A stretch of DNA of 64,000 bases from an uncultured Actinomycetes bacterium (GTDB lineage: Bacteria; Actinomycetota; Thermoleophilia; RBG-16-64-13): assembly GCA_963747275.1 (NCBI GenBank), contig CAVVEI010000012.1, positions 19,066 to 83,065 of the forward strand, given 5' to 3'. Of the stretch, positions 1,204 through 22,292 are shown piece after piece. The notes under the pieces were generated by a model that was not told the DNA's origin, made no database searches, and saw only the letters and a program-made list of their open reading frames with translations. The position numbers and the translations under genes were made by a program. Position 1 is the stretch's first letter. The number at the start of each line of letters is the position of its first letter.

Positions 1204-2319
1204 GTGACCCCGGCAAGTAGACCGGCTGTCTCGCGCAAGACGGTAGGCAGGCTCAGCCTCTACCGTCGGCTCTTGGACGACCTCAGGGCCTCGGGCACCG
1301 CCAACATCTACTCCCATCAAGTCGCCCACCTCGCCGGAGTCAGCGCCGCCCAGGTGCGCCGGGACTTCATGGTCATAGGCTACTCGGGCAGTCCCAACCG
1401 CGGCTACGAGGTCGACACTTGCCTGGCCAGCATCGAGAGCCTTCTCGATGGCAGCATGCGCCAAGACGTGGCTCTGGTGGGTATGGGCCGCTTGGGCCAG
1501 TCACTGCTGGCGCACTTCGCGGGCAAGCGCCCACAGCTTCGCATCGCGGTGAGCTTCGACACCGACCCTCACTTGATAGGCACCTCGTTCGAGGGCTGCC
1601 CCGTGCACAGCGTGGCCGACATGGAGAGAGTGGTGGCCAAGAAGGGCATCCGCATAGCCATCATCGCCGTGCCTGCCCAGATGGGGCAAGAGGTGGCCGA
1701 CGGCTTGGTGCGGGCCGGCGTGCGCAGCATCGTCGACTTCACCGGTATCCCCCTGCGCGTGCCTGACGACGTGTGGGTGGACCACATGGACATCACCTCG
1801 GCCTTGGAGTCGGCCGCCTTCTTCGCCCGGCCGGAACAGACGTACGGCGACGCCGACGAGAACGGCAACGGCGAGAACGGTGACGAAGCCAACAGCGCAC
1901 CGGCCATGTATCCCATCATCCAGACCATCGACTCACTCCTGGCGGCGGCCAACATGAAACTGCAAGAACTTGCCCAGAAGATCGGCGCGGTGGTGCTCAC
2001 CACCGGCGATGCGGGCGAGCGCATGGTGACCAAGATCTACGCGGGCGACCGGGTGAGCGATCTGCTCAACGAGGCCTCCGACCAGACCCTGCTGGTCACC
2101 AACCTGGTGAACCTGCAGATGGTCCGCATGGCCGAGCTCATGGAGGTACCCGGCATCTGCTTCGTCGACGGCATAGATCCGGGCAGCGAAGTGATAGAGC
2201 TCGCCAACAAGAACGGCACCCTGCTGATGGTGTCACCACTGGGGGTCTTCGAGACCTGCGGCCTCATCTACCACCTGCTCGCCCGCGAGAGCCAAGAGGC
2301 CAAGGAACAGGGAGCGTAG
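1204..2319 (+). CDS. rex: redox-sensing repressor Rex fused to a C-terminal DRTGG-type domain
   Basis: N-terminal ~215 aa are Rex-like: RLSLYRRLL, SHQVAHLAGVSAAQVRRDF, Rossmann VALVGMGRLGQSL, IAIIAVPA. After an acidic Gly/Asn linker, the C-terminal ~110 aa (IYAGDRVSDLLNEASDQTLLVTNLVNLQMVRMA..GTLLMVSPLGVFETCGLIYHLL) are paralogous to the stand-alone DRTGG protein at 4017-4420. Confidence 0.85.
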   Translation: MTPASRPAVSRKTVGRLSLYRRLLDDLRASGTANIYSHQVAHLAGVSAAQVRRDFMVIGYSGSPNRGYEVDTCLASIESLLDGSMRQDVALVGMGRLGQSLLAHFAGKRPQLRIAVSFDTDPHLIGTSFEGCPVHSVADMERVVAKKGIRIAIIAVPAQMGQEVADGLVRAGVRSIVDFTGIPLRVPDDVWVDHMDITSALESAAFFARPEQTYGDADENGNGENGDEANSAPAMYPIIQTIDSLLAAANMKLQELAQKIGAVVLTTGDAGERMVTKIYAGDRVSDLLNEASDQTLLVTNLVNLQMVRMAELMEVPGICFVDGIDPGSEVIELANKNGTLLMVSPLGVFETCGLIYHLLARESQEAKEQGA

Positions 2320-2326
2320 GCGGCTC

Positions 2327-4450: not shown

Positions 4451-5200
4451 CTGCGGTCGTACCGGGCCGATCTGCACATCCACACGGCCCTCTCGCCCTG
4501 CGCGTCAGACGAGATGACGCCGCCCGCCATCGTGGCGGCGGCGGCCAAGGCCGGCCTGGACGTCATAGCCATCTCTGACCACAACACAGCGGGCAACGTG
4601 GCCGCGGTGCAGGAGGCGGCCAAGGCCGCGGGCAACGGGCTGACCGTGCTGCCGGGCATGGAGATAACCAGCGCCGAAGAGGCCCACGTGCTCGGGGTGT
4701 TCCCCGACCTGCAGGCCGCCGAGGGCGCCGCGGCCGAGTTGCGTACCATGCTGCCCCGGGCCGATTCCGACTACTACGCCTTCTTCGGCGAGCAGCCGCT
4801 GCTGACGGCGGCGGGGTGCCAGGCGGGGGCCGAGACTGCCGCGCTGGCGGGTGCCTCGCCCTTGGACCTCACCTCCACCGTGGAGTTCATCCACCGGCTG
4901 GGCGGGCTGGCCATAGCCGCCCATGTGGACCGCAAAGCGTTCAGCGTCTACTCGCAGTTGGGCTTCTTCCCCCAAGAGGCCGGCTTCGACGGCGTGGAGG
5001 TCTCGCGCCACGTGTCCACAGACTCCCCGCGCCTGGAGGAGTACTCGGCCTTGGGGCTGCCGCTCATAGGCTGCTCCGACAGCCACTACCTGGAAGAGAT
5101 AGGCACGGCGACCACCGAGCTTCACCTCGCCGGGCCGGAGTTCTCTGAGCTGGCCCTGGCCCTTGCCGGAGCCGAGGGTAGGAGCGTGGCCCGTGCATGA
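4451..5200 (+). CDS. PHP-domain (polymerase/histidinol-phosphatase-like) metal-dependent phosphoesterase; start codon unresolved
   Basis: The motif YRADLHIHTALSPCASDEM lies upstream of the first ATG (4514). It is followed by GLDVIAISDHNT, GMEITSAEEAHVLG, AHVDR and GCSDSH. The frame opens right after the DRTGG stop (4418-4420) and has no ATG/GTG/TTG before 4514, only CTG at 4451. Confidence 0.75.
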   Translation: MRSYRADLHIHTALSPCASDEMTPPAIVAAAAKAGLDVIAISDHNTAGNVAAVQEAAKAAGNGLTVLPGMEITSAEEAHVLGVFPDLQAAEGAAAELRTMLPRADSDYYAFFGEQPLLTAAGCQAGAETAALAGASPLDLTSTVEFIHRLGGLAIAAHVDRKAFSVYSQLGFFPQEAGFDGVEVSRHVSTDSPRLEEYSALGLPLIGCSDSHYLEEIGTATTELHLAGPEFSELALALAGAEGRSVARA

Positions 5201-5681
5201 CCTATCTCTATATCTTCTCGAGTTGCTCGAGAACTCCATCCGCGCCGGCGCGCAGCAGGTGGAGATAGGCCTGCTCATGGACGAACAGGCCAACGAACTG
5301 CGCCTCACGGTGGATGACGACGGACAGGGCCTGAGCGCCTCACCTGATCGCGTCCTGGACCCCTTCTTCACCACCAAGGCCGACAAGAAGACCGGCTTGG
5401 GCCTCAGCCTGCTGAAGGCCGACGCCCAAGCGGCCGGGGGCGATCTGCTGATAGGTGCGTCGCCGACCCTGGGCGGCACCCGGGTCGAGACCCACATGGA
5501 CTTAGACCATGTCGATCGGATACCGGTCGGCGACATGGGCAGCACCATCACCGTGACCGCCTTCACCAACCCCGAGGTCCAGTTCGTGGTGGACCTCACC
5601 GGAGACCAGTTCTCCCCGCCGCTGCTGCGGGCCTCGCCCGCCGCCGCAGCCGAGAGGCTGGCTAAGGAGGCGGCGGCGTGA
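5193..5681 (+). CDS. histidine-kinase-like ATPase-only protein (HATPase_c)
   Basis: GTG 5193 overlaps the PHP stop (GTGCATGA), with GGAG upstream. Motifs: LLELLENSIRAGA (N-box), DDDGQGL (G1), FFTTK..GLGLSLL (G2). No HisKA or sensor domain is present. Confidence 0.75.
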   Translation: MHDLSLYLLELLENSIRAGAQQVEIGLLMDEQANELRLTVDDDGQGLSASPDRVLDPFFTTKADKKTGLGLSLLKADAQAAGGDLLIGASPTLGGTRVETHMDLDHVDRIPVGDMGSTITVTAFTNPEVQFVVDLTGDQFSPPLLRASPAAAAERLAKEAAA

Positions 5682-5734
5682 GCGAGGGTATACGTGGAGC
5701 GCCGGGTATGGAACCAACCGACAAGGAGTCGTGA

Positions 5735-6283
5735 ATGACCGCGGATAGTAAGGCAAAGAGCAGTACCTGCCAGGGCTGCGAGGAGGCCTCAGAGCAGGAA
5801 CTCCTTGCGCGCCTCGATGAAGTGCTCGAGCGCTACAAGGTGAGTCCCGGAGGACTCATCCCGGTCCTGCAACAGGCCCAGGGCATCTTCGGTTATCTGC
5901 CCGAGGTTGCCCTCAAGCGCATCGCCAAGGGTCTCTCTAAGTCGTACAGCGAGGTGGCCGGAGTGGTGAGCTTCTACTCCTTCTTCTCCACCGTACCTCG
6001 CGGCAAGCACATCATAAGAGTCTGCCTGGGTACCGCCTGCTACGTGCGCGGCGGCCTCGCGGTGCTGGACGCCGTTCGCGAGAAGCTGGGCATCGACGTG
6101 GGCGAGACCACCGAAGACCGGCAGTTCTCGCTCGAGGTGGCGCGCTGCTTCGGAGCCTGCGGTCTCGCTCCGGCTGTCTCTATAGACGAAGACGTCCACC
6201 GGCGCGTGCGCGCATCCCAGGTGGGACAGATACTTGCCCGCTACTACGAACAGGAAGAGGTGGCCCAGAATGTCGCCAGTTGA
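5735..6283 (+). CDS. hydC: NuoE-like [2Fe-2S] subunit of NAD(P)H-linked [FeFe]-hydrogenase (HydC/gamma type)
   Basis: SD AAGGAG. Motifs: LIPVLQQAQGIFGYLP, SFYSFF, IIRVCLGTACYVRG, ARCFGACGLAPAV. The four Cys match the 24-kDa-subunit fold. Confidence 0.85.
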   Translation: MTADSKAKSSTCQGCEEASEQELLARLDEVLERYKVSPGGLIPVLQQAQGIFGYLPEVALKRIAKGLSKSYSEVAGVVSFYSFFSTVPRGKHIIRVCLGTACYVRGGLAVLDAVREKLGIDVGETTEDRQFSLEVARCFGACGLAPAVSIDEDVHRRVRASQVGQILARYYEQEEVAQNVAS

Positions 6284-6674
6284 GGGGTCCGGTGCCGGCA
6301 AGATAAAGAGCCCTGCCGACCTGCTTGCCATAAAGGAGCGGACGCAGCGTGAGAACGCCCTGCGCGAGGACGGCTATCACGTCCTGGCCACCGTGCACAT
6401 GGGCACTTGCGGCATCGCAAGTGGTTCGCGCGAGGTCCTCTCGACCATGATCGCCGAACTCTCGGCCTCTGGACGCCTGGACGTGCGGGTCGCGACTTCG
6501 GGCTGCATAGGAGCCTGCGAGCACGAACCGGTGATGACGGTCGAGACTCTGGAGAAGGCCAAGGTGGTCTACGGCGACTTGGACGCCGAGAAGGCCAGAG
6601 AGATCTGGCGAGAGCACATCATGGACGGCAGACACGTGCCCAAGTACGTGGTCAGCTACGGAAGCGAGGCCTGA
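6270..6674 (+). CDS. thioredoxin-like [2Fe-2S] ferredoxin (HydD-like)
   Basis: ATG 6270 follows GAAGAGGTGG. Motifs VHMGTCGIASGS and SGCIGACEHEPVMTV are typical of the small ferredoxin found in Thermoanaerobacter-type hyd clusters. Confidence 0.75.
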   Translation: MSPVEGSGAGKIKSPADLLAIKERTQRENALREDGYHVLATVHMGTCGIASGSREVLSTMIAELSASGRLDVRVATSGCIGACEHEPVMTVETLEKAKVVYGDLDAEKAREIWREHIMDGRHVPKYVVSYGSEA

Positions 6675-6678
6675 GTCG

Positions 6679-9600
6679 ATGAGCGACAACGGCAAGACAC
6701 CCCACATGCACATAATGATGTGCTTCGGCACCGCCTGCCTCTCCTCAGGTGCCGAGCACGTCAAGGCCGCCCTCGAGGAACAGCTTCACCTCCAGGACGC
6801 GGACGCCGAGGTCGGCGTGATCGAGACAGGCTGTAACGGCTTCTGCGCCGGTGGCCCGCTCATGGTCATCTACCCCGGCGGCGTGTTCTACAACAAGGTC
6901 ACACCCGAGGACACTGCCGAGATCGTGGCCGAGCACGTGCTCAAAGGCCGTCCGGTGGAGAGGCTCATGTACGAGCACCCCACCACCAAGGCCCGCATAC
7001 CCCTGTTCAAAGACATCCCCTTCTTCGCCCGCCAGAACCTGCGCGTGCTGCGCAACAAGGGACGCATAGCGGCTGAAGAGATCGACGAGTACATAGCCAA
7101 CGACGGCTATGCCGGGCTGGCCAAGGCCCTCACCGAGATGACGCCCGAGGACATAGTCGAAGAGATCATGATGAGCGGCCTGCGCGGCCGCGGGGGCGCG
7201 GGCTTTCCCACCGGCCTCAAGTGGGAGTTCGCCTCCAAGGCCAAGGGCGACCAGAAGTACATACTCTGCAACGCCGACGAGGGCGACCCCGGGGCGTTCA
7301 TGGACCGCAGCATCCTGGAGAGCGACCCGCACGCGGTGCTCGAGGGCATGATGATCGGTGCGCGGGCCATCGGGGCCACCAAGGGCTACATCTACTGCCG
7401 GGCCGAGTATCCGCTGGCGCTGGAGCGCCTGGGCGTGGCCATCGCCGCCCTGCGTGAGTACGGCCTTCTCGGCAAGGGCATCCTGGGCACCGACTTCGAC
7501 TTCGACATCGAGATAGCCCAAGGCTCGGGCGCCTTCGTCTGCGGCGAGGAGACGGCGCTCATGACCTCCATCGAGGGCAAGCGCGGCGAGCCGCGCCCGC
7601 GGCCCCCGTTCCCGGCGCAGAAGGGTCTGTGGGGTCAGCCCTCGGTGCTCAACAACGTCGAGACGTTGGCCACCGTGCCCTCCATCATCAGGCTGGGGGC
7701 CGCATGGTTCCGCACCGCCGGCACTGAGAAGAGCCCTGGCACCAAGATCTTCGCCCTCTCGGGCAAGGTCAACAACGTCGGTCTGGTCGAAGTCGACATG
7801 GGTATCCCCCTGGGCGACATAATCTACGAAATAGCCGGGGGCATCCCGGGCGGCAAGCAGTTCAAGGCCGTGCAGTTGGGTGGTCCGTCTGGTGGCTCCA
7901 TTCCCCGTCAGCACTTGAACGTGCCGGTGGACTACGAGTCGGTGCAAGAGCTGGGCGCCATCATGGGCTCCGGCGGACTCATCGTCATGGACGAGGACAG
8001 CTGCATGGTCGACATGTCCCGCTTCTTCTTGGAGTTCACCCAAGAGGAGAGCTGCGGCAAGTGCGTGCCCTGCCGCGTGGGCACCAAGCGCATGCTCGAG
8101 ATCGTCACCCGCATCTGCAACGGCCAGGGCGAAGAGGGCGACATAGAGAAGCTCGAGGAGCTGGGCAAGGTGATCAAAGACACCGCCCTCTGCGGCCTCG
8201 GCCAGACCGCCCCCAACCCGGTGCTGGCCAACATCCGCTACTTCCGCAAGGAGTTCGAGGCAGCACATCCGCGACCATCGCTGCGAGGCGGGCGTCTGCT
8301 CGAGCATGTTCGTGGCCAAGTGCACCAACGCCTGCCCGGCGTCGGTGAACGTGCCCGGCTTCGTCAGCCTCATCGGCGAGAAGCGCTTCGACGAGGCCCT
8401 CCGCCTGCACCGCGAGCGCAACCCGCTGGCCAGCATCTGCGGCCGCGTCTGCTTCCATCCGTGCGAAAGCAAGTGCCAGCGCGGCACCATGGACGACCCG
8501 GTGGCTATCCGCGGTCTCAAGCGCTTCATGACCGAGCAGGAGAAGAAGCTGCAGGTTCCTGAGGTCCGCAAGAGCGCCGCAAACGCCGAGAAGAAGATCG
8601 CCATCATCGGCGGCGGTCCGGCCGGCCTCTCCTGCGCCTACTTCCTGGCGCGGCTGGGTTACGAGCCCACCATCTTCGAGCGCGAAGACCACGCCGGCGG
8701 CATGTTGGTGCAGGCCATCCCCTCGTACCGCCTGCCGCGCGAAGAGCTGGACCGCGAGATCAAGATGATCCAGGACCTGGGCGTGACCATAGAGACCGGC
8801 AAGGCTCTGGGCCGCGACTTCACCCTGGCCAGCCTCCGCAACCAGGGCTATCACGCCGCCTTCTTGGGCGTCGGCGCCCCCAAGGGCGTCGGCCTGGGAC
8901 TCTCCAAAGAAGAGGGCTCTGAGGCCGGCGAAGGCGTGGTCGATGCGCTCACCTTCTTGCGTGAGTACAACGTCAGCGGCAATCCCGCCGTGGGTCAAGA
9001 GGTCGCCGTGGTCGGCGGGGGCAACTCCGCTATCGACGCCGCCCGTACCGCCCTCCGCTTGGGCGCCAAGCACGTGAACATCATCTACCGCCGCCAGCGC
9101 GAGCAGATGCCCGCCTGGACCGAAGAGATACTGGCTGCCGACGAGGAGGGCATCACCCTGCTCACCCTGACGGCTCCCGAGACCATCAGACGCGACTCTT
9201 CCGGCAAGGTGGCCGGCATACTGTGTCAGAAGATGGTGCTGGGTGACTACGACTCGAGCGGCCGGCGCCGTCCGGTGCCGGGCCGCGACCCTCACTTCAT
9301 AGTGCCGTGCGACCAGGTGATAGCCGCCATCGGCCAGGCCCCCGAGCCGCGGATGCTCACCGGCGACCTACCCGTCGAGATGGATAACGGCTGGCTCAAG
9401 GCCGACGAGCGCACCGGCTCCACCAACCTGGACTGGGTGTTTGCCGGCGGCGACGCCGTCACCGGCCCGGCCTCGGTGGTCGAGGCCGTGGGCGCCGGCG
9501 AGCGCGCCGCGGTCTCCATTGACAAGTACCTCACCGGCGAAGAGCACGCCTTCTGGCGACGCGACCTCGCTGTGGACACCTTCTTCGACCCCGATGCCGA

Positions 9601-9811
9601 CCCGACCGAAACCCCCCGTGCCGCGGTCGTCTGCTTGGACGCCGAAGCCCGCGCGTGCACCTTCGACGAGGTCGAGCTGTCGTGGGACCTGCAGACTGCC
9701 TGCGCCGAAGCCAAGCGCTGTCTGCGCTGCGACTACGGCAAGATCCCCGCCGAGCCTGAGCTGGTGGGCGTCGCGGCAGCCGACTCTGATACACAAGGAG
9801 ACGTGGAGTAA
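6679..9811 (+). pseudogene. NuoF-like flavoprotein (HydB/beta type) fused to a GltD/NfnB-like FAD/NAD(P)H oxidoreductase module; one frameshift as assembled
   Basis: N-terminal Trx-like 2Fe-2S (MMCFGTACLSSG, ETGCNGFCAGGP). NuoF core: GRGGAGFPTGLKW, ILCNADEGDPGAF, ESCGKCVPCRVG, LCGLGQ. After ...YFRKEFEA the frame slips near 8261-8266. It continues HIRDHRCEAGVCSSMFVAKCTNACPA..ICGRVCFHPCESKCQRG..KIAIIGGGPAGLSCAYFL..VAVVGGGNSAIDAART..VFAGGD. Confidence 0.8.
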
Positions 9812-11583
9812 TGCCAAGCCTGACTGTAGATGGAATGAAGGTGGAAGTGCCTGAGAGCGCCAGCGTCCTGCAGGCCTGCCGCCAAGCCGGCGCCAAGGTG
9901 CCCACCCTGTGTCACCTGGAGGGCCATCCGGCCATCGGCGCCTGCCGCCTCTGCCTGGTGGAGTTGGAGGGCGCCCGCTCCCTGGTCGCCTCTTGCACCC
10001 AACCAGCCACCGACGGCATGGTGGTGCACACCAACACCCCGCGCGCGCGCCGCGCGCGCCACGCCGTGCTGGAGCTCATACTCTCCGAGCACGATGGTGA
10101 CTGCTACGCGTGCGTGCGCAGCGGTGACTGCGAACTGCGACAGTTGGCCCTCGACCTACATGTGGTCGAGATCAGCTATGAGGGCGAACGCACCCGCAAG
10201 ATGATCGACGAATCCACGCCCGCGCTGGTGCGCGACACCGGCAAGTGCGTCAGCTGCCGCCGTTGCGTGACCGCCTGCAACGAGATCCAGGGCGTGGGTG
10301 CCCTGTTCGCGCAGGGGCGCGGCTTCACCACAGTCATAGGCCCGGCCTTCGCCAGCAACTTGAGCGACGTGGTCTGCGTTCAATGCGGCCAATGCGCCGC
10401 CGTGTGCCCGGTGGGAGCCATCACCGAGAACAACGCCGTCGACCTGGCCTGGGCAGCCCTGGACGACCCCGCCAAGCATGTCATAGTGCAGACCGCGCCC
10501 GCCATCCGCGGCGCGCTGGGAGAGGAGTTCGGCTACGAGCCCGGTACCCTGGTCACCGGCAAGATGGTCTCGGCCTTGCGGCGTCTCGGGTTCGACGCCG
10601 TGTTCGACACCAACTTCACCGCCGACCTAACCATCATGGAAGAGGGCACCGAGCTGCTCACCCGCCTCAAGAAGGCTCTGGTGGACGGCGAGCAGGTGGC
10701 CCTGCCCATGTTCACCAGCTGCTCCCCGGGTTGGGTCAACTACATGGAGCACTTCAACCCCGACATGCTCCCTAACCTCTCCACCTGCAAGTCGCCCCAA
10801 CAGATGTTAGGCGCGCTGGCCAAGACCTACTACGCCGAGAAGCTGGGCAAGAAGCCTGAGGACATCGTGGTGGTCTCGGTGATGCCCTGCACCGCCAAGA
10901 AGTACGAGTGCGCCCGAGTGGAGATGGGCCGGGGCGGCGTAGCCGACGTCGACATGGTGCTCACCACCCGAGAGCTGGCGCGCATGATCAAGATGGCCGG
11001 CATAGACTTCCAGAACCTGCCCCCGCAGAAGATGGACCGCCCGCTGGGCATGTCCACCGGCGCGGCAGACATCTTTGCCGTCACCGGTGGAGTGATGGAG
11101 GCGGCGCTCCGCACCGCCTACGAGATAGTCACCGGCGAGGCCTTCCCCTTCGTCAACCTTCACGTGGCCCCCATCGAGGGGCTGCAGGGCGTCAAAGAAG
11201 CTTCGGTCAAGATCGAGAAGACCCTACCCGAGTGGAGCTTTCTCAAGGGCGCCACGCTCAACGTGGCCGTGGCCCACGGGTTGGGCAACGCCCAGAAGGT
11301 CATCGACCGCATAAAGAGCGGTGAGGCCACCTACCATTTCGTCGAAGTCATGACCTGCCCCGGCGGATGCATCGGTGGCGGCGGCCAGCCGCGCCTGACC
11401 TCCGACGCGGTGCGCGAGGCGCGCATACGAGCCATCTATGCCGAGGACGAGGGGCGCGAGCTACGCAAGTCGCACGAGAACCCCGACGTCAAAGCCTTGT
11501 ACGAGGAGTTCTTGGGTGAGCCTTTGGGGCACAAGTCTCACGAACTCTTGCACACCAAGTACGTGGAGAAAGACCGGGTCTAG
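9811..11583 (+). CDS. hydA: [FeFe]-hydrogenase catalytic subunit, multi-cluster (M3-type) HydA
   Basis: ATG overlaps the upstream TAA (TAATG), with SD AAGGAG. N-terminal 2Fe-2S (CHLEGHPAIGACRLC), His-ligated cluster region, CVSCRRCVTAC and CVQCGQCAAVCP. H-cluster motifs: L1 FTSCSPGW (non-canonical), L2 VMPCTAKKYE, L3 EVMTCPGGCIGGGGQP. C-terminal small-subunit-like tail. Confidence 0.9.
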   Translation: MPSLTVDGMKVEVPESASVLQACRQAGAKVPTLCHLEGHPAIGACRLCLVELEGARSLVASCTQPATDGMVVHTNTPRARRARHAVLELILSEHDGDCYACVRSGDCELRQLALDLHVVEISYEGERTRKMIDESTPALVRDTGKCVSCRRCVTACNEIQGVGALFAQGRGFTTVIGPAFASNLSDVVCVQCGQCAAVCPVGAITENNAVDLAWAALDDPAKHVIVQTAPAIRGALGEEFGYEPGTLVTGKMVSALRRLGFDAVFDTNFTADLTIMEEGTELLTRLKKALVDGEQVALPMFTSCSPGWVNYMEHFNPDMLPNLSTCKSPQQMLGALAKTYYAEKLGKKPEDIVVVSVMPCTAKKYECARVEMGRGGVADVDMVLTTRELARMIKMAGIDFQNLPPQKMDRPLGMSTGAADIFAVTGGVMEAALRTAYEIVTGEAFPFVNLHVAPIEGLQGVKEASVKIEKTLPEWSFLKGATLNVAVAHGLGNAQKVIDRIKSGEATYHFVEVMTCPGGCIGGGGQPRLTSDAVREARIRAIYAEDEGRELRKSHENPDVKALYEEFLGEPLGHKSHELLHTKYVEKDRV

Positions 11584-18290: not shown

Positions 18291-18677
18291 GTGGTAAAGA
18301 TCCTTATCGTCGATGATGACCCGGACATGGTAGAAGCCAGCCGAATAGTCCTCGAGAGAGACGGCTACTCGGTGGAACACGCCTCCAACGTCGAAGAGGG
18401 CCTGCAGAAGCTCGCAGAGGCCAAGCCCGACCTGCTGATCCTGGACGTGATGATGGAAGAGCCCGACGACGGCCTGCGCTTCGCCAGGCAGGCGAGGCGT
18501 TTGGGCAACGATCTGCCGATACTCATGCTCACCAGCGTCAACCGCGCCCTTGGCATCCAGATAGGCAAAGACGAAGAGATGGTCCCGGTGGACGAGTTCG
18601 TGGAGAAGCCGGTCGACCCCGCCACCCTCTCAGCCAAAGTCAAGGAGTTGCTCGCCATGAGAGGAGCTGCCTCATGA
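18291..18677 (+). CDS. stand-alone response-regulator receiver domain, first gene of second hydrogenase operon
   Basis: GTG start after GAGGGAG. KILIVDDDPD, DLLILDVMM, LMLTSVNRALG, FVEKP. Paralogous to the receiver at 11635. The stop overlaps the next ATG (ATGA). Confidence 0.85.
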   Translation: MVKILIVDDDPDMVEASRIVLERDGYSVEHASNVEEGLQKLAEAKPDLLILDVMMEEPDDGLRFARQARRLGNDLPILMLTSVNRALGIQIGKDEEMVPVDEFVEKPVDPATLSAKVKELLAMRGAAS

Positions 18678-20374
18678 CTACCGCAGAACTGAAGCAGCTC
18701 CGTGGCGAGATAGTCGGCATCGCGGAGCACACCAACTTCAGCCGCGCCTCTCTGGTGCCCATCCTGCGCTTTATCAAGGAGAAGTACCGAGGCATCGACT
18801 CTGAGGCCATGCAGATCGCCGCCGACGTCTTGCGCATCGCCCCCGTAGAGGTCGACGCAGTCTCCACCTTCTACTCCTTCCTGAGCCCTGAAGTGCAAGG
18901 TCAGTTCGTGTTCCGGCTCTGCCAGACCTACTCCTGCGAGCTCGCGGGCAAGCAAGAGGTCGTGGCTCAGCTGGAGAAAGACTTGGGCATCAAGGTCGGC
19001 GAGACCTCGGCCGACGGAGCCTTCAGCCTGGAGTTCGCGAACTGTATGGGCATGTGCGACCAAGGGCCGGCTATGCTGGTGAACGACGAGCTCTACGCCA
19101 AACTGACGCCCAACAAGGTGCACGAGATAGTGGCCCACTACCGCAAGCGCCTTACCGACGACAAAGGCGCCACCCAGGCCGGCGCCACGCTCACCGCGGC
19201 GCTGCCCGAGGCCGCCAACCAGCTCACTTTTGCGGGGATCACCCCCGACGACGGGCTCAAGAAGGCGCTCGCCATGGGCCGCGGCGACTTGGTCGACCTG
19301 GTGCGCGACTCCAAACTCAAGGGGCGTGGCGGCGCGGGCTTTCCCACCGGCATCAAGTGGGACCTGGCGGCCGCCGAGAAGCGGCGCCCCAAGTACATCA
19401 TGTGTAACGCCGACGAGGGCGAGCCCGGCACCTTCAAAGACCGGCTGATACTCAGCCAGTACGCCGACCTGGTGATGGAGGGCATGACCATCGGCGCGCG
19501 GGCCATCGGCGCAGCGCTCGGGCTCATATACCTCCGCGCCGAGTACGCCTACCTGCGGCCACACCTGCTGGAGGTCATCGCGCGGCGCCGCGAGGCCGGC
19601 CTTCTGGGTCAGAACATCGGCGGCATCGAGGACTTCAACTTCAACATAATGGTGGCCATGGGCGCCGGCGCGTACGTGTGCGGCGAAGAGACGGCCCTTA
19701 TCGAATCCCTTGAGGGCTTCCGCGGCGAGCCGCGCAACCGCCCGCCCTTCCCGGTGGTCTCGGGCTTTCTCAACCGGCCCTCGGTGGTCAACAATGTCGA
19801 GACCCTGGCCTGGGTGCCCTGCATCCTCTCCAAGGGCGTGGACTGGTTCAAGAGCGTGGGCACCGACGCCTCCAAGGGCCACAAGCTGTTCAGCATCTCC
19901 GGCGATTGCGAGCGCCCCGGCGTGTATGAGTTCCCCTTCGGCATCACGGTAGCCGAGTTGCTGAAGACCGTAGGCGGCGAGAACGCCAAGGCCGTGCAGA
20001 TAGGCGGCGCCTCCGGGCGCTGCGTACCGCGTAAGGACTTCGAACGCCGCTTGGCCTTCGAAGACATCGCCACCGGCGGCTCGCTGATAGTCATCGGCCC
20101 TGCCCGCGACATGCTCGATCTGGCCCGCAACCTGATGGAGTTCTTCGTCGACGAGTCGTGCGGCCAGTGCACACCCTGCCGGGTGGGCAACCATAAGCTG
20201 CTGGAAGGGGTAGAGATGCTCCAAGCCGGCACCTGCACCGACGAGTACCTAGATGAATTGAGGGGTCTCGCCAACACCATGCAGGTCGCCTCCAAGTGCG
20301 GCCTGGGACAGGCCAGTTCGGTGGCGCTACTTTCTATACTCGAGCACTTCGGAGATGAGATCCATGCCCGATAA
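18674..20374 (+). CDS. NuoE-NuoF fusion flavoprotein (diaphorase subunit of second [FeFe]-hydrogenase)
   Basis: NuoE part: SLVPILRFIKEKY, STFYSF, FRLCQTYSCEL, ANCMGMCDQGPA. NuoF part: GRGGAGFPTGIKW, IMCNADEGEPGTF, ESCGQCTPCRVG, KCGLGQ. No C-terminal ferredoxin or GltD module. Confidence 0.85.
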   Translation: MTTAELKQLRGEIVGIAEHTNFSRASLVPILRFIKEKYRGIDSEAMQIAADVLRIAPVEVDAVSTFYSFLSPEVQGQFVFRLCQTYSCELAGKQEVVAQLEKDLGIKVGETSADGAFSLEFANCMGMCDQGPAMLVNDELYAKLTPNKVHEIVAHYRKRLTDDKGATQAGATLTAALPEAANQLTFAGITPDDGLKKALAMGRGDLVDLVRDSKLKGRGGAGFPTGIKWDLAAAEKRRPKYIMCNADEGEPGTFKDRLILSQYADLVMEGMTIGARAIGAALGLIYLRAEYAYLRPHLLEVIARRREAGLLGQNIGGIEDFNFNIMVAMGAGAYVCGEETALIESLEGFRGEPRNRPPFPVVSGFLNRPSVVNNVETLAWVPCILSKGVDWFKSVGTDASKGHKLFSISGDCERPGVYEFPFGITVAELLKTVGGENAKAVQIGGASGRCVPRKDFERRLAFEDIATGGSLIVIGPARDMLDLARNLMEFFVDESCGQCTPCRVGNHKLLEGVEMLQAGTCTDEYLDELRGLANTMQVASKCGLGQASSVALLSILEHFGDEIHAR

Positions 20375-22292
20375 GTCGACCCTCCCAACCAGACGAGCTC
20401 CGCTCAGCCAGCTCTTTCAGCCCGACCTGGAGCCCGAGGCTCCGGCGGCGGACGCAATCGGGGCCACTATCCCGGTCACCATAGACGGCATCGAGACCAA
20501 GGTGCCTATGGGCACCACCATCCTCGAGGCAGCCAAGGCCCTGGGCGTGCGCATACCCACTCTCTGCTACCACCCGGACCTCGAAGTGGCCGGCATCTGC
20601 CGCATCTGCGTGGTCGAGGTGGAGGGGCAGCGGAACCTGCAGGCCGCGTGCGCCTACCCGATCACGGCACCGCTCAAGGTGAACACCTACTCCAAGGCGG
20701 TGCGCATCGCCCGCCGGCATGTTCTCGACCTGCTGCTCAGTGAGCACTGCGGCGACTGCTACGCCTGCATCCGCAACGGTCACTGCGAACTCCAGGCCCT
20801 GGCCGAAGAATACGGAGTGGACAAGTTCCGGTTCGGGCACGAGGAGGTCCCCGTTCCGGTGGACGAATCGAGCTACTCGGTCGTCCGCGACATGAACAAG
20901 TGCATCCGCTGCCGCCGTTGCGTACGCACCTGCATCGACATGCAGGAGGTGGGCGTGCTGGAGGCCACCAACCGCTCCAACCGGGTGGACGTCTCTACCT
21001 TCAAGCACATCCCCTTGGCCGAGGCCGTCTGCATCAACTGCGGACAGTGCATAAACCGCTGCCCCACCGCTGCGCTCTACGCGCATCCGGCATTGGCACC
21101 CGTCTGGCAGGCCTTGGACGATCCGACCAAGCATGTGGTGGTACAGACTGCCCCGTCGCCGCGGGCAGCCATGGGCGAGATGTTCGGCCTAGAGCCAGGC
21201 ACCACCGTCACCTACCAGATGAACACGGCCCTCAGGCGCATGGGCTTCGACCACGTGTTCGACACCAACTTCACCGCCGACCTCACCATAATCGAGGAGG
21301 GTACCGAGCTCCTGCTGAGGCTGCACAAGGCCTTGGTCGAAGGTGACACGAAGGCGGCCCTGCCCCAGTTCACCAGCTGCTCACCGGGTTGGGTGAAGTA
21401 TTGCGAGCACTTCTATCCCGAGTACATCCCCAACCTCTCCACGGCCAAGTCGCCACAACAGATGTTCGGGGCGCTCATCAAGACCTTCTACGCGCAGAAG
21501 ATGGGTGTAGACCCCAAGGACATAGTCAGCGTGGCCATCATGCCCTGCTCGGCCAAGAAGTTCGAGTGCAACCGCCCCGAGATGAACGCCTCGGGCTATC
21601 AGGACGTCGACTTCGGCCTGACCACCCGCGAGCTGGGCGCCATGTTCCGGCAGGCCGGCCTCGATGTGCCGTCGCTGCCCCGCTCTGACTTCGACGACCC
21701 GTTCGGCGGAGCCACCGGCTCCGGCCTCATCTTCGGAGCAACGGGCGGGGTCATGGAGTCGGCTCTGCGCACGGTCATCGAGTTGGTGACCGGCCAGAAG
21801 GTGGAGAACCTCTATGAACACGGCGACATCTTGCCCGTCCGCGGTTTCGACGGCGTCCGTTACGCGGAGCTCAAGATCCAAGAGGTCGGTCCGGTACCCG
21901 AGCTACTCGCGCACCTGGTGCCCAACTGGAACTGGCTCAAGGGAGCCACCCTCAAGGTGGCCGTGGCCCACGGCACCGCCAACGCCCACAAGGTGATGGA
22001 AGACATCAAGGCCGGCGGCAAGTTCGCGGAGTGCCACTTCATAGAGTTCATGGCCTGCCCGGGCGGATGCCTGGGCGGTGGCGGCCAGCCCATGCCCACC
22101 AATGCAGAGATCCGGGCGGCGAGGGCCAAGGCCATCTACGGCGAAGACCGGCAGATGACCGTGCGCAAGTCGTACGAGAACCCGGCGGTGCTGCGCGTCT
22201 ACAAGGAGTTCCTCACCGACGGACCCTGCGGGCACAAGAGCCACCAACTGCTGCACACGCACTACACCAACCGCGGCAAACACATCTCGTAG
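20355..22292 (+). CDS. hydA: [FeFe]-hydrogenase catalytic subunit, second paralogue
   Basis: Alternative start at ATG 20364 (GGAG upstream). CYHPDLEVAGICRIC, CIRCRRCVRTC, CINCGQCINRCP. L1 FTSCSPGW (non-canonical), L2 IMPCSAKKFE, L3 EFMACPGGCLGGGGQP. C-terminal small-subunit-like tail. Confidence 0.9.
   Translation: MRSMPDKSTLPTRRAPLSQLFQPDLEPEAPAADAIGATIPVTIDGIETKVPMGTTILEAAKALGVRIPTLCYHPDLEVAGICRICVVEVEGQRNLQAACAYPITAPLKVNTYSKAVRIARRHVLDLLLSEHCGDCYACIRNGHCELQALAEEYGVDKFRFGHEEVPVPVDESSYSVVRDMNKCIRCRRCVRTCIDMQEVGVLEATNRSNRVDVSTFKHIPLAEAVCINCGQCINRCPTAALYAHPALAPVWQALDDPTKHVVVQTAPSPRAAMGEMFGLEPGTTVTYQMNTALRRMGFDHVFDTNFTADLTIIEEGTELLLRLHKALVEGDTKAALPQFTSCSPGWVKYCEHFYPEYIPNLSTAKSPQQMFGALIKTFYAQKMGVDPKDIVSVAIMPCSAKKFECNRPEMNASGYQDVDFGLTTRELGAMFRQAGLDVPSLPRSDFDDPFGGATGSGLIFGATGGVMESALRTVIELVTGQKVENLYEHGDILPVRGFDGVRYAELKIQEVGPVPELLAHLVPNWNWLKGATLKVAVAHGTANAHKVMEDIKAGGKFAECHFIEFMACPGGCLGGGGQPMPTNAEIRAARAKAIYGEDRQMTVRKSYENPAVLRVYKEFLTDGPCGHKSHQLLHTHYTNRGKHIS

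What the first reader, a model, noticed from the sequence alone, without database searches (positions are those of the whole stretch)
6679..9811. HydB (NuoF-like) subunit fused to a GltD/NfnB-like NAD(P)H-FAD module in a HydABC-type hydrogenase operon
The usual C-terminal 2x[4Fe-4S] ferredoxin end of bifurcating-hydrogenase beta subunits is replaced. Past the single frame slip near 8261-8266, the NuoF core continues into the Cys-rich N-terminus and two Rossmann folds typical of glutamate-synthase small-chain / NfnB proteins. These are CTNACPA..ICGRVCFHPCESKCQRG, IIGGGPAGLSCAYFL and VVGGGNSAIDAART.

One complex would then hold an NADH/FMN site, a second NAD(P)H/FAD site and the H-cluster subunit. 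That suggests a hydrogenase-transhydrogenase hybrid (H2 / NADH / NADPH / ferredoxin).

GltD-like modules linked to hydrogenase-related proteins are known, for example glutamate-synthase-linked [FeFe] groups and Stn-type transhydrogenases. This exact arrangement, with a second GltD-less operon 9 kb away, deserves a look.
Basis: partly seen in the sequence, partly recalled or inferred. Interest (0 to 1): 0.6.

Follow-up and report, generated by a model that had tools for sequence, protein, structure and literature searches.

The report
Hydrogenase subunit fused to NADPH module
The two overlapping reading frames are one gene for a hydrogenase electron-transfer subunit whose usual ferredoxin-type end is replaced by an NADPH/FAD module; the break is most likely an assembly error, and the fusion is a widespread enzyme type described by sequence in 2024 but never tested biochemically.

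Summary
Window 6679-8262 (frame 1) and 8264-9811 (frame 2) together encode a 1043-aa HydB/NuoF-like protein. It runs straight into a GltD/NfnL-like module with 2x[4Fe-4S], FAD and NAD(P)H sites. One extra base near 8263 breaks the frame.

The slip is most likely a long-read assembly error:
- It cuts through a conserved metal-binding motif.
- Both halves are under strong purifying selection.
- Most same-genus orthologues (eight of those listed) are intact.
- Neighbouring genes in this window carry further frame breaks.

The fusion is not rare. At least 569 species-representative genomes from many phyla carry it, nearly always in the order NuoE, (small ferredoxin), NuoF::GltD, HydA. Zheng & Huang (mSystems 2024) already described it as "sub-type I BfuB". 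No biochemistry exists.

The FAD module is of the Stn/NfnA kind, not the NfnB kind. It shows the same circular permutation and an invariant Lys where NfnB has Glu. My best reading is that NADP(H) takes the place of ferredoxin as the third partner of an H2/NAD(H) enzyme.

Side finding: this genome and nearly its whole genus lack the HydE/F/G maturases.

Verdict: a new member of a known, uncharacterised kind, of modest interest.

The parts
1204..2319 (+). Rex-type redox-sensing repressor with a C-terminal extension, at the head of the locus
   Evidence: Pfam finds Put_DNA-bind_N and CoA_binding. It is syntenic in relatives.
5735..6283 (+). HydC/BfuC, a NuoE-like subunit carrying the C1 [2Fe-2S] cluster
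   Evidence: Pfam 2Fe-2S_thioredx, E = 4e-46. It lies upstream of the fused gene in nearly all related loci.
6234..6674 (+). Small thioredoxin-like [2Fe-2S] protein, HndB-like. The true start is probably downstream of 6234.
   Evidence: Weak Pfam 2Fe-2S_thioredx match: 23.6 bits against a cut-off of 24.8. It is conserved at this position in Actinomycetota, Spirochaetia and Myxococcota loci and absent in many Planctomycetota loci.
6679..8262 (+). HydB/BfuB core, residues 1-528, read in frame 1. It holds the N-terminal [2Fe-2S] domain (B5; 6703-6933), the FMN/NADH domain (7171-7680), SLBB, and the [4Fe-4S] B1 region (from 8011).
   Evidence: The best solved relatives are A. mobile NiFe-HydB (7T2R_B, E = 6e-241) and A. 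woodii HydB. Cys15, 20, 52, 56, 442, 459, 462, 465, 480 and 505 are conserved in 97-100% of 38 family members.
8261..8264 (+). One extra base that shifts the frame by +1 (GAGGCAGCAC where the relative has GAGGCC-CAC)
   Evidence: It is the only uncompensated indel in the gene when aligned with L008.
8264..8299 (+). B2 metal-site motif H529-x5-C535-x4-C540. The slip separates it from its partner ligands C442 and C480.
   Evidence: H529, C535 and C540 are 100% conserved. The site definition comes from PMC12018979.
8279..8548 (+). DPD_II / Fer4_20 domain. Six of the eight Cys of the two [4Fe-4S] clusters are here (C548, C552, C587, C591, C595, C599), plus the invariant K614.
   Evidence: Pfam Fer4_20, E = 1e-21. 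Conservation is shown.
8594..9499 (+). FAD-binding and NAD(P)H-binding Rossmann folds (GGGPAG, GGGNSAIDAART, YRRxRxxMPA)
   Evidence: Pfam Pyr_redox_2, E = 2e-30. The motifs are 97-100% conserved. It aligns with Csac NfnA, Tsi NfnA, Tm NfnB and StnC.
9716..9730 (+). C-terminal RCLRC, the last two cluster Cys. It sits at the end of the module as in NfnA/StnC, which is a circular permutation relative to NfnB.
   Evidence: in 4YLF_B the same segment aligns to residues 13-43. C1014 and C1017 are 97% conserved.
9811..11583 (+). HydA, an M3-type [FeFe]-hydrogenase catalytic subunit with motifs TSCSPGW, MPCTAKKYE and EVMTCPGGCIGGGGQP. Its start codon overlaps the HydB stop codon.
   Evidence: Pfam Fe_hyd_lg_C, E = 2e-99. 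The best solved relative is A. woodii HydA1 (7Q4V_A, E = 1e-186), which has the same TSCSPGW.
18674..22292 (+). Second hydrogenase operon: a NuoE-NuoF fusion (566 aa, no B5 domain, no C-terminal domain) followed by a 645-aa HydA
   Evidence: The architecture matches S. aciditrophicus HydAB, in which HydB is a fusion of the gamma and beta subunits.

Best explanation
Window 6679-9811 is a single gene for a roughly 1043-aa HydB/BfuB-type subunit.

Shown by sequence:
- The subunit keeps the whole NuoF-like core: the N-terminal [2Fe-2S] B5 cluster, the FMN/NAD(H) site, the [4Fe-4S] B1 cluster and the B2 hinge site.
- The ferredoxin-like B3/B4 domain that normally follows B2 is replaced by a Stn/NfnA-type module. 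This module has two [4Fe-4S] clusters, FAD and an NADPH-type dinucleotide site.
- With NuoE-like HydC, a small [2Fe-2S] protein and an H-cluster HydA, it forms a hydrogenase of the described but uncharacterised 'sub-type I BfuABC' kind.

Inferred:
- The +1 frame slip at about 8263 is an assembly or base-calling error, not biology (about 0.85).
- Electrons pass between the H-cluster and FMN through the HydA clusters and B1.
- NAD(H) reacts at FMN.
- The branch that in canonical enzymes leaves through C1/B2 to B3/B4 and ferredoxin here leads through the two DPD_II clusters to FAD and NADP(H).
- The FAD is then a plain hydride entry/exit site, as in StnC/NfnA, not a second bifurcating flavin.
- The enzyme therefore couples H2 with both NAD(H) and NADP(H) without ferredoxin. 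Under cellular ratios NADP(H) (about -380 mV) would be the low-potential partner and NAD(H) (about -280 mV) the high-potential partner.

In this organism such an enzyme could feed NADPH to C1 metabolism, or it could vent NADH plus NADPH as H2.
For: One gene, slip artefactual:
- The repaired junction matches intact homologues across the join, with one substitution (R for H) a few residues further on.
- dN/dS against L008 is 0.085 upstream and 0.128 downstream of the slip, with no stop in 514 codons.
- The slip separates H529/C535/C540 from C442/C480 of one metal site.
- The downstream frame has no start codon before 8306, which would drop those ligands.
- The orthologue lies in an open frame of 1032-1098 aa in eight same-genus genomes. 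It is broken or shortened only in few-contig assemblies: G000, G010, G012 and G013.
- The window has at least four more frame breaks in upstream genes relative to L007. L007 in turn is broken where the window is intact.

Family:
- More than 8000 candidate homologues were found, about 90 of the 120 listed being full-length at roughly 1000-1063 aa.
- At least 569 species-representative genomes carry a relative.
- HydA lies downstream on the same strand in about 72 of 80 loci, and all three H-cluster motifs are found in 65 of 80.
- All cofactor residues are conserved.
- The literature description is in PMC11406978.

Stn-type module:
- Best solved relatives are Csac NfnA residues 103-567 (E = 8e-108) and Tsi NfnA, ahead of Tm NfnB and GltD.
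- It shares their permutation, with RCLxC at the C-terminal end.
- K614 is invariant and aligns with StnC K170, where Tm NfnB has Glu.
- In Stn/NfnABC this FAD does not bifurcate.

Core of the bifurcating type:
- The N-terminal part scores 630-805 bits against solved BfuB subunits, but about 400 bits against Nqo1 and 381-389 bits against FDH beta subunits.
- C480, the extra B2 ligand of A. mobile HydB, is invariant.

Context:
- A GltD-module-bearing FdhA-like gene sits next to formate-THF ligase on C4.
- The potentials used come from Table 1 of PMC9304861.
Against: - No reads could be examined, so a genuine frameshift in this strain is not excluded.
- The extra base is not in a homopolymer, the commonest long-read error context.
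- No member of the family has been purified. Cofactor content, NADPH specificity and any energy coupling are inferred from sequence only.
- Sequence cannot tell a bifurcating from a non-bifurcating FAD. The Arg near N5 is conserved in both kinds.
- The module keeps C587, which NfnB has and NfnA/StnC lack.
- A ferredoxin could still dock on the DPD_II clusters, as it does in NfnSL.
- The genome, and nearly the whole genus, lacks recognisable HydE/F/G. How, or whether, HydA receives its [2Fe] subcluster is unexplained.
- The small [2Fe-2S] protein has no assigned place in this scheme.
Confidence: 0.6

Rival explanations
1. The frameshift is real in this strain. The gene is a recent pseudogene, or it yields a truncated HydB of 528 native residues plus a 99-residue out-of-frame tail, without the FAD module.
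For: The sequence as given carries the extra base. The site is not a homopolymer. Reads could not be checked.
Against: dN/dS is 0.13 and there is no stop over 514 downstream codons. The slip cuts a conserved metal site. Frame breaks are frequent in this assembly and in sister few-contig assemblies, at different places. No break is seen in the five many-contig assemblies where the gene is not cut short by a contig end.
Confidence: 0.1
2. The FAD of the fused module is a second, canonical bifurcating flavin of the NfnB kind, so the enzyme has two bifurcation centres and still uses ferredoxin. This is the proposal of Zheng & Huang 2024.
For: It was proposed in PMC11406978. The module is 40-45% identical to Tm NfnB, keeps the Arg of the YRLP motif and keeps the NfnB-like Cys587. 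In NfnSL the two [4Fe-4S] clusters hand electrons to ferredoxin.
Against: There is no NfnA/NfnS-type partner ([2Fe-2S] plus second FAD) in the operon. The module has the permutation and the invariant Lys of StnC/NfnA, whose FAD does not bifurcate, in place of the Glu of NfnB. Its clusters sit where they are needed as a wire to the core.
Confidence: 0.15
3. It is a simple dual-coenzyme hydrogenase with no energy coupling. Either NADH at FMN or NADPH at FAD exchanges electrons with the H-cluster independently, as in the non-bifurcating HydABC of Syntrophomonas wolfei.
For: HydB proteins that lack the B3/B4 domain are non-bifurcating. The B3/B4 domain is absent here.
Against: The core keeps B5, B2 (with the extra Cys480) and C1, which are the marks of bifurcating BfuBC cores. 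It scores far higher against BfuB subunits than against non-bifurcating NuoF or FDH-beta. The same window already encodes a minimal non-bifurcating HydAB-type enzyme.
Confidence: 0.2
4. The locus does not make an active hydrogenase in this genus because the H-cluster cannot be matured. HydA then acts only as an Fe-S conduit, or the complex has another role such as NADH/NADPH transhydrogenation.
For: HydG, HydF and HydE are not found in the genome. In 12 same-genus genomes HydF is found in 0 and HydG in 1, although these genomes carry 3-5 Fe_hyd_lg_C genes each.
Against: All three H-cluster motifs are intact and conserved. Sensory HydS-like genes accompany the operons. Archaea and some eukaryotes make active [FeFe] hydrogenases without HydEFG. 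MAG binning may lose the maturase genes: G005 has HydG on a 1.6-kb contig.
Confidence: 0.1
5. The slip is a programmed +1 ribosomal frameshift.
For: None beyond the presence of the slip itself.
Against: Close relatives have no slip at this site. There is no slippery or stop-codon context; frame 1 stays open for another 99 codons.
Confidence: 0.01

Closest known systems
Sub-type I BfuABC group A3 [FeFe]-hydrogenase of Hydrogenedentota (Zheng & Huang, mSystems 2024, PMC11406978)
   Same: It has the same BfuB architecture: the B3/B4 ferredoxin domain is replaced by DPD_II (2x[4Fe-4S]) plus a C-terminal FAD/NAD(P) domain. The HydA partner is M3a-type with Ser at the fifth P1 position. A Hydrogenedentales locus (L062) is among the direct homologues.
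   Different: Here the host is an Actinomycetota MAG. The operon carries an extra small [2Fe-2S] gene and an upstream Rex/HATPase/PHP accessory set. This copy has a frame slip. That paper gives no biochemistry and favours a second bifurcating FAD, which the Stn-like features found here argue against.
Electron-bifurcating HydABC(D) of Acetobacterium woodii / Thermoanaerobacter kivui / Thermotoga maritima, and NiFe-HydABCSL of Acetomicrobium mobile (PDB 7Q4V, 8A6T, 7P5H, 7T2R)
   Same: The HydA, HydC and HydB cores are close relatives (E = 1e-186 for HydA1; 6e-241 for A. mobile HydB). The B5, B1, B2 and FMN sites are kept.
   Different: Those enzymes end HydB with the B3/B4 ferredoxin-like domain that passes electrons to ferredoxin. 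Here that domain is absent and an FAD/NADPH module takes its place.
Stn / Nfn-Bfu (NfnABC) transhydrogenases of Sporomusa ovata, Caldicellulosiruptor saccharolyticus and Thermococcus sibiricus (PDB 8OH5, 9BOV, 9N5U)
   Same: The FAD/NADPH module is most similar to theirs (E = 8e-108 to NfnA residues 103-567). It shares the circular permutation and the Lys at the cluster-ligand position. They have the same BfuBC-type core.
   Different: In Stn/Nfn the module is inserted in the NuoG-like A subunit, which has no H-cluster, and BfuB keeps B3/B4 for ferredoxin. Here the module is on the B subunit and the A subunit is a true HydA.
NfnAB / NfnSL (Thermotoga maritima 4YLF, Pyrococcus furiosus 5JCA) and glutamate synthase small subunit GltD
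   Same: They share the fold and motifs of the 2x[4Fe-4S]-FAD-NADPH module (E = 1e-93 to Tm NfnB; 3e-59 to GltD).
   Different: No NfnA/S partner is present. The module is permuted. Lys stands in place of the Glu ligand. It is fused to a NuoF-like protein.
HndABCD NADP-reducing hydrogenase of Desulfovibrio fructosivorans (from my own knowledge; not tested here)
   Same: The four-gene order is the same: NuoE-like, small [2Fe-2S] protein, NuoF-like, HydA.
   Different: As I recall it, HndC ends in a ferredoxin-like domain and has no FAD module.
Archaeal group F hybrid hydrogenase HydB with a glutamate-synthase-like domain (Greening et al., Cell 2024, PMC11216029)
   Same: It is a NuoF-like HydB modelled with a glutamate synthase chain as template for an extra domain.
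   Different: It is an archaeal complex that also holds a [NiFe] hydrogenase. Relatedness to this fusion was not tested here.

Membership tests
Sub-type I BfuB (Zheng & Huang 2024) | NuoF-like core with the B5, FMN, B1 and B2 sites | tested here: met
   Pfam domains are present. Cys15/20/52/56, 459/462/465/505, 442/480/535/540 and His529 are conserved.
Sub-type I BfuB (Zheng & Huang 2024) | B3/B4 domain replaced by DPD_II plus a C-terminal FAD/NAD(P)-binding domain | tested here: met
   Fer4_20 at residues 534-623 and Pyr_redox_2 at 639-940 follow directly on NADH_4Fe-4S. The contrast with canonical paralogues is shown.
Sub-type I BfuB (Zheng & Huang 2024) | Encoded beside BfuC and an H-cluster BfuA | tested here: met
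   NuoE-like gene at 5735-6283 and HydA at 9811-11583.
Canonical Bfu family (Schut et al. 2022) | BfuB with the complete cofactor set, including the C-terminal B3/B4 ferredoxin-like domain that serves ferredoxin | tested here: not met
   There are no CxxCxxCxxxCP pairs after the B2 motif.
Canonical Bfu family (Schut et al. 2022) | Electron bifurcation between NAD+ and ferredoxin | not testable with these tools
   This needs enzyme assays.
Stn / Nfn-Bfu transhydrogenase | GltD-like NADPH/FAD module inserted in the NuoG-like A subunit, which lacks an H-cluster | tested here: not met
   The module is on the NuoF-like subunit, and the A subunit has all H-cluster motifs.
Stn / Nfn-Bfu transhydrogenase | Module features: permuted order (RCLxC last) and a conserved Lys at the proximal-cluster ligand position | tested here: met
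   Alignments to 9BOV_A, 9N5U_A and 8OH5_C. K614 is present in 38 of 38 sequences. K170 of StnC is described.
NfnAB / NfnSL | Large subunit paired with a small [2Fe-2S]/FAD NAD(H)-binding subunit; Glu ligand on the proximal cluster | tested here: not met
   No such gene is in the operon. Lys stands where Tm NfnB has Glu.
Group A2 'glutamate-synthase-linked' [FeFe] hydrogenase (definition from my own knowledge) | HydA paired with a separate GltD-like subunit and without NuoE/NuoF subunits | tested here: not met
   NuoE and NuoF parts are present and GltD is fused to NuoF.
GltD/NfnL-type FAD-NADPH module | Eight cluster Cys, the FAD GxGxxG motif, the NADPH GxGxxA motif with YRR, and the GGD motif | tested here: met
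   C548/552/587/591/595/599/1014/1017, G644-G649, G779-A784, Y803-R805 and G923-D925 are 97-100% conserved.
[FeFe] hydrogenase catalytic subunit (HydA at 9811-11583) | H-cluster motifs P1, P2 and P3 | tested here: met
   TSCSPGW, MPCTAKKYE and EVMTCPGGCIGGGGQP. A. woodii HydA1, an active enzyme, has the same P1 variant.
[FeFe] hydrogenase catalytic subunit (HydA at 9811-11583) | HydE/HydF/HydG maturases present in the genome | tested here: not met
   for this genome (80.6% complete). for the genus.

The most novel reading that the evidence does not exclude
This widespread fused-HydB family may be a ferredoxin-independent hydrogenase that splits or joins electrons between the two pyridine nucleotides: 2 H2 + NAD+ + NADP+ <-> NADH + NADPH + 2 H+. 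NADP(H) at a non-bifurcating Stn-type FAD would occupy the low-potential exit that ferredoxin uses in every characterised Bfu enzyme. That would be a new third-partner logic for the FMN/Fe-S bifurcation site. In this genus the enzyme would also have to be matured without HydEFG.
Probability: 0.3. Interest if true: 0.65.

Novelty: new member of a known kind. Interest (0 to 1): 0.3.

Why it matters
The fused subunit defines a very common hydrogenase type that nobody has assayed. It occurs in hundreds of species of Planctomycetota, Verrucomicrobiota, Omnitrophota, Actinomycetota, Bacteroidota and other phyla.

If NADP(H) really replaces ferredoxin at the exit of the bifurcating core, genome-based models that score these operons as 'group A3, NADH/ferredoxin-bifurcating' mis-assign electron flow in many anoxic habitats.

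For this window alone the practical message is narrower. The gene is intact in biology but broken in the assembly, so automatic annotation will call it a pseudogene or two genes. The lack of maturases across the genus is a separate lead that bears on the open question of HydEFG-independent H-cluster assembly.

Tried and rejected
- A pattern scan of metagenome contigs for the junction, allowing one or two bases at the slip, found a single distant contig with the one-base (intact) form. It found no second copy of this strain.
- Nucleotide alignment with L008 to catalogue every frame break was too noisy outside the conserved genes, at 77% identity. I therefore relied on frame changes of tblastn segments.
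- A shared error motif was considered, since GCAGC occurs at two indel sites, but it was not pursued.
- dN/dS was obtained for L008 only. My splitting script failed on the other loci.
- I looked for any biochemical paper on a NuoF::GltD hydrogenase in searches. Only the bioinformatic description and the archaeal hybrid turned up. Schut 2022 and Losey 2020 do not mention the fusion.
- Rejected readings: Stn membership, because the module is on the wrong subunit; group A2; NfnAB; programmed frameshifting.
- Structure prediction was not run. The tool returns no coordinates, so cluster-to-cluster distances could not be measured, and the sequence matches to solved structures were already decisive.


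Full report
**What is in the sequence.** ORF listing shows two long, overlapping + strand frames: 6679-8562 (frame 1) and 8306-9811 (frame 2). Translating 6679-8262 and 8264-9811 and joining them gives a 1043-aa protein. Its junction...RYFRKEFEA|HIRDHRCEAGVC..., matches intact 1042-aa homologues across the join, apart from one substitution a few residues further on (HIRDHR here, HIRDHH in the homologues). The homologues are 91% identical over residues 400-800.

At DNA level the window reads GAGGCAGCACATC where the syntenic relative reads GAGGCC-CACATC. Along the whole gene this is the only indel that is not compensated within a few bases.

Pfam gives exactly the predicted order: 2Fe-2S_thioredx (residues 9-85), Complex1_51K (165-334), SLBB, NADH_4Fe-4S (445-529), Fer4_20 (534-623), Pyr_redox_2 (639-940). 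The neighbours are:
- a NuoE-like gene at 5735-6283;
- a small thioredoxin-like [2Fe-2S] gene at 6234-6674;
- a 590-aa HydA at 9811-11583 with TSCSPGW, MPCTAKKYE and EVMTCPGGCIGGGGQP.

The indirect evidence points to an assembly error.

1. The slip falls inside the conserved B2 metal-site motif, not at a domain boundary. H529, C535 and C540 would be separated from C442 and C480. The downstream frame has no start codon before 8306, beyond those ligands.
2. Against the closest intact orthologue, dN/dS is 0.085 upstream and 0.128 downstream of the slip, with no stop in 514 codons.
3. The orthologue sits in an open frame of 1032-1098 aa in eight same-genus genomes. Shortened or split frames occur only in assemblies of about 10-24 contigs: this genome, G010, G012 and G013. 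In G012 the break is at a different place.
4. Relative to L007, the window's upstream HATPase/Fe-S/H-domain gene appears in frames 2, 1, 3 and 1, and the HATPase-NuoE stretch changes frame. L007 in turn is fragmented across the sensor-kinase and second-operon genes that are intact in the window.

The closest relatives carry 'MFD...contig_N' names. From my own knowledge this is the long-read Microflora Danica MAG set. The window's genome, at 24 contigs for 2.08 Mb, looks like the same kind of assembly.

A programmed frameshift is excluded in practice, because relatives lack the slip and there is no slippery or stop context. I put the artefact at about 0.85 and a genuine recent frameshift at about 0.1.

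**How common is the fusion?** The homologue search hit its ceiling of 8000 candidates. About 90 of the 120 best hits are full-length proteins of roughly 1000-1063 aa with the complete domain set.

They come from Actinomycetota, Planctomycetota, Verrucomicrobiota/Kiritimatiellales, Omnitrophota, Bacteroidota, Spirochaetota, Myxococcota, Acidobacteriota, Hydrogenedentota and others. They include a record not labelled as a MAG, Pontiellaceae bacterium B1224.

Among the 80 loci fetched:
- a NuoE homologue lies just upstream in nearly all;
- a HydA homologue of 63-89% identity lies just downstream on the same strand in about 72;
- 65 contain an ORF with all three H-cluster motifs under a strict pattern, and 62 of those have TSCSP;
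- the rest are mostly cut by contig ends.

In a 38-sequence alignment spanning several phyla, every Cys assigned to B5, B1, B2 and the two DPD_II clusters is conserved in 97-100% of sequences. So are the FMN-site motifs, both GxGxxG/A motifs, YRRxRxxMPA and GGD.

**What replaces what.** The same genome carries two canonical BfuB paralogues:
- C5, followed by a PFOR-like A subunit;
- C13, followed by an FdhA-like A subunit.

After the shared motif YFRxE(F/L)xxH(V/I)xxxxCxxxxC, these continue with two CxxCxxCxxxCP ferredoxin motifs. The window protein instead continues with CTNACP...CGRVCFHPCESKC. The swap point is thus a few residues after B2.

Against solved structures, the core (residues 10-544) is closest to A. 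mobile NiFe-HydB (805 bits), followed by A. woodii HydB (738 bits). StnB, Csac NfnB, T. kivui HydB, Tsi NfnB and T. maritima HydB follow at 630-660 bits. Nqo1 scores only about 400 bits and FDH beta subunits 381-389 bits. C480 corresponds to the extra Cys that gives A. mobile HydB a [2Fe-2S] cluster rather than Zn at B2. It is invariant in the family.

**The FAD module is of the Stn/NfnA kind.** The C-terminal half is closest to residues 103-567 of C. saccharolyticus NfnA (E = 8e-108). T. sibiricus NfnA, T. maritima NfnB and StnC follow. GltD and dihydropyrimidine dehydrogenase are far behind. Two features tie it to the NfnA/StnC form.
- The segment ...F.EVE......A..EA.RCL.C is N-terminal in NfnB (residues 13-43 of 4YLF_B). 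[quoted passage not shown] This is a circular permutation.
- The residue aligned with StnC K170 is Lys in 38 of 38 family members. The Stn paper reports K170 as a strictly conserved ligand of the proximal cluster. T. maritima NfnB has Glu at that position.

In Stn and NfnABC this FAD is a non-bifurcating NADPH entry site, and bifurcation resides in the FMN/Fe-S core. Note that in Stn the module sits in the NuoG-like StnC and the NuoF homologue is StnB.

**Prior description.** Zheng & Huang (mSystems 2024) split Hydrogenedentota group A3 hydrogenases into five sub-types. [quoted passage not shown] They add that no such enzyme has been characterised and speculate about a second bifurcating centre. 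They also note that Ser at the fifth P1 position is common.

Greening et al. (Cell 2024) modelled an archaeal hybrid-hydrogenase HydB with a glutamate-synthase chain as template for an extra domain. The Bfu family paper and the paper on non-bifurcating beta subunits do not mention the fusion. I found no biochemical study.

**Most likely mechanism (inferred).** HydA oxidises or forms H2. Its Fe-S chain connects through B1 to FMN, where NAD(H) reacts. The branch that canonically runs C1/B2, B3, B4 to ferredoxin here runs into the two DPD_II clusters and FAD, where NADP(H) reacts.

With the potentials tabulated by Schut et al. (NAD about -280 mV, NADP about -380 mV, H2 -414 mV at 1 bar), H2 at roughly 100-200 Pa lies between the two nucleotide couples by my own Nernst estimate. 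Coupled co-reduction of NAD+ and NADP+ by H2, or joint oxidation of NADH and NADPH to H2, is therefore thermodynamically sensible, with NADP(H) in ferredoxin's role.

The rivals are:
- an uncoupled dual-coenzyme enzyme;
- a two-centre enzyme that still uses ferredoxin;
- an enzyme that is not an active hydrogenase in this genus.

Context fits an NADPH-consuming C1 metabolism. On contig C4, a 1393-aa FdhA-like protein with the same GltD-type insertion lies next to formate-THF ligase and a B12-binding protein.

**The second operon.** 18674-20374 encodes a NuoE-NuoF fusion of 566 aa with no B5 domain and no C-terminal domain. A 645-aa HydA follows. This is the architecture of the non-bifurcating, NADH-dependent HydAB of Syntrophus aciditrophicus. 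The two operons lie 8-9 kb apart in several same-genus genomes as well, so the pairing is a genus trait and not a peculiarity of this window.

**An unexplained side observation.** The genome is 80.6% complete and has six Fe_hyd_lg_C matches. It has no HydG, and no HydF above the family cut-off. tblastn with the HydE, HydF, HydG and aspartase-like genes that flank the orthologous operon in a same-class genome (L100) finds nothing.

Across 12 same-genus genomes, six of them more than 90% complete:
- HydF is found in none;
- HydG is found in one, on a 1.6-kb contig;
- eleven carry 3-5 strong hydrogenase-domain genes.

Maturase-free [FeFe] hydrogenase hosts are documented for archaea and some eukaryotes. 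I did not find this stated for a bacterial lineage, but I did not search for it specifically.

**Verdict.** This copy differs mainly by a probable assembly error. Novelty: a new member of a known kind. Interest: 0.3.

Noticed in passing
whole genome G000 and same-genus genomes G001-G012: No HydE/HydF/HydG maturase genes were found in this genome. In 12 same-genus genomes HydF occurs in 0 and HydG in 1, the latter on a 1.6-kb contig. Yet these genomes carry 3-5 strong [FeFe]-hydrogenase-domain genes each, with intact H-cluster motifs. A same-class genome (G020, locus L100) has hydE, hydF and hydG directly beside its HydB::GltD-HydA operon.
   Followed up: partly
window 2324-4011: The HATPase/Fer4/H-domain-like/FeS accessory gene is intact (571 aa) in relative L007. 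In the window it is spread over frames 2, 1, 3 and 1, which means at least three frame breaks. These are probably further assembly indels.
   Followed up: partly
window 5193-6283: The HATPase_c gene and the NuoE-like gene are in different frames here (3, then 2, changing at about 5678-5696). In L007 they form one 363-aa ORF. In the short-read relative L011 they are also in different frames. It is unclear which state is real.
   Followed up: partly
window 10714-10734 and 21372-21392: Both HydA paralogues have TSCSPGW in place of TSCCPxW. This is not unusual. The structurally characterised A. woodii HydA1 (7Q4V_A) has the same motif. So do 62 of 65 HydA partners of the fused HydB family. Zheng & Huang report Ser as common in four of five sub-types.
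   Followed up: yes
G000 contig C4, locus L099 6902-11083: A 1393-aa protein has a GltD-type module (Fer4_20 plus Pyr_redox_2) inserted between an N-terminal [2Fe-2S] domain and a full molybdopterin formate-dehydrogenase-like body. Formate-THF ligase, a B12-binding protein and a GntR regulator lie next to it. It may be an NADPH-linked formate dehydrogenase of a Wood-Ljungdahl-type pathway.
   Followed up: partly
G000 contig C5 32224-39269 and contig C13 261029-266117: There are two further Bfu-type clusters with canonical BfuB (B3/B4 domain present). On C5, a PFOR-alpha-like gene, NuoE and BfuB are followed by a 1041-aa A subunit that combines a GltD-like insertion lacking the YRR motif with a TPP/PFOR-beta-like end. 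On C13 the order is NuoE, BfuB and an 897-aa FdhA-like subunit.
   Followed up: partly
window 18674-22292: The second hydrogenase operon has the S. aciditrophicus HydAB architecture: a NuoE-NuoF fusion with no B5 and no B3/B4, followed by HydA. That enzyme is non-bifurcating and NADH-dependent. The spacing of about 8-9 kb from the first operon recurs in same-genus genomes.
   Followed up: partly
G012 contig C5 41295-42801: In another few-contig same-genus assembly, the orthologous FAD module is split into two overlapping frames at a different position. This supports assembly-type indels as the cause of such breaks.
   Followed up: no
locus L014 (Actinomycetota MAG AS10tlH2TH_230): This related locus has the fused HydB gene but no HydA homologue directly downstream within 6 kb. 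It may be a variant operon without the catalytic subunit.
   Followed up: no
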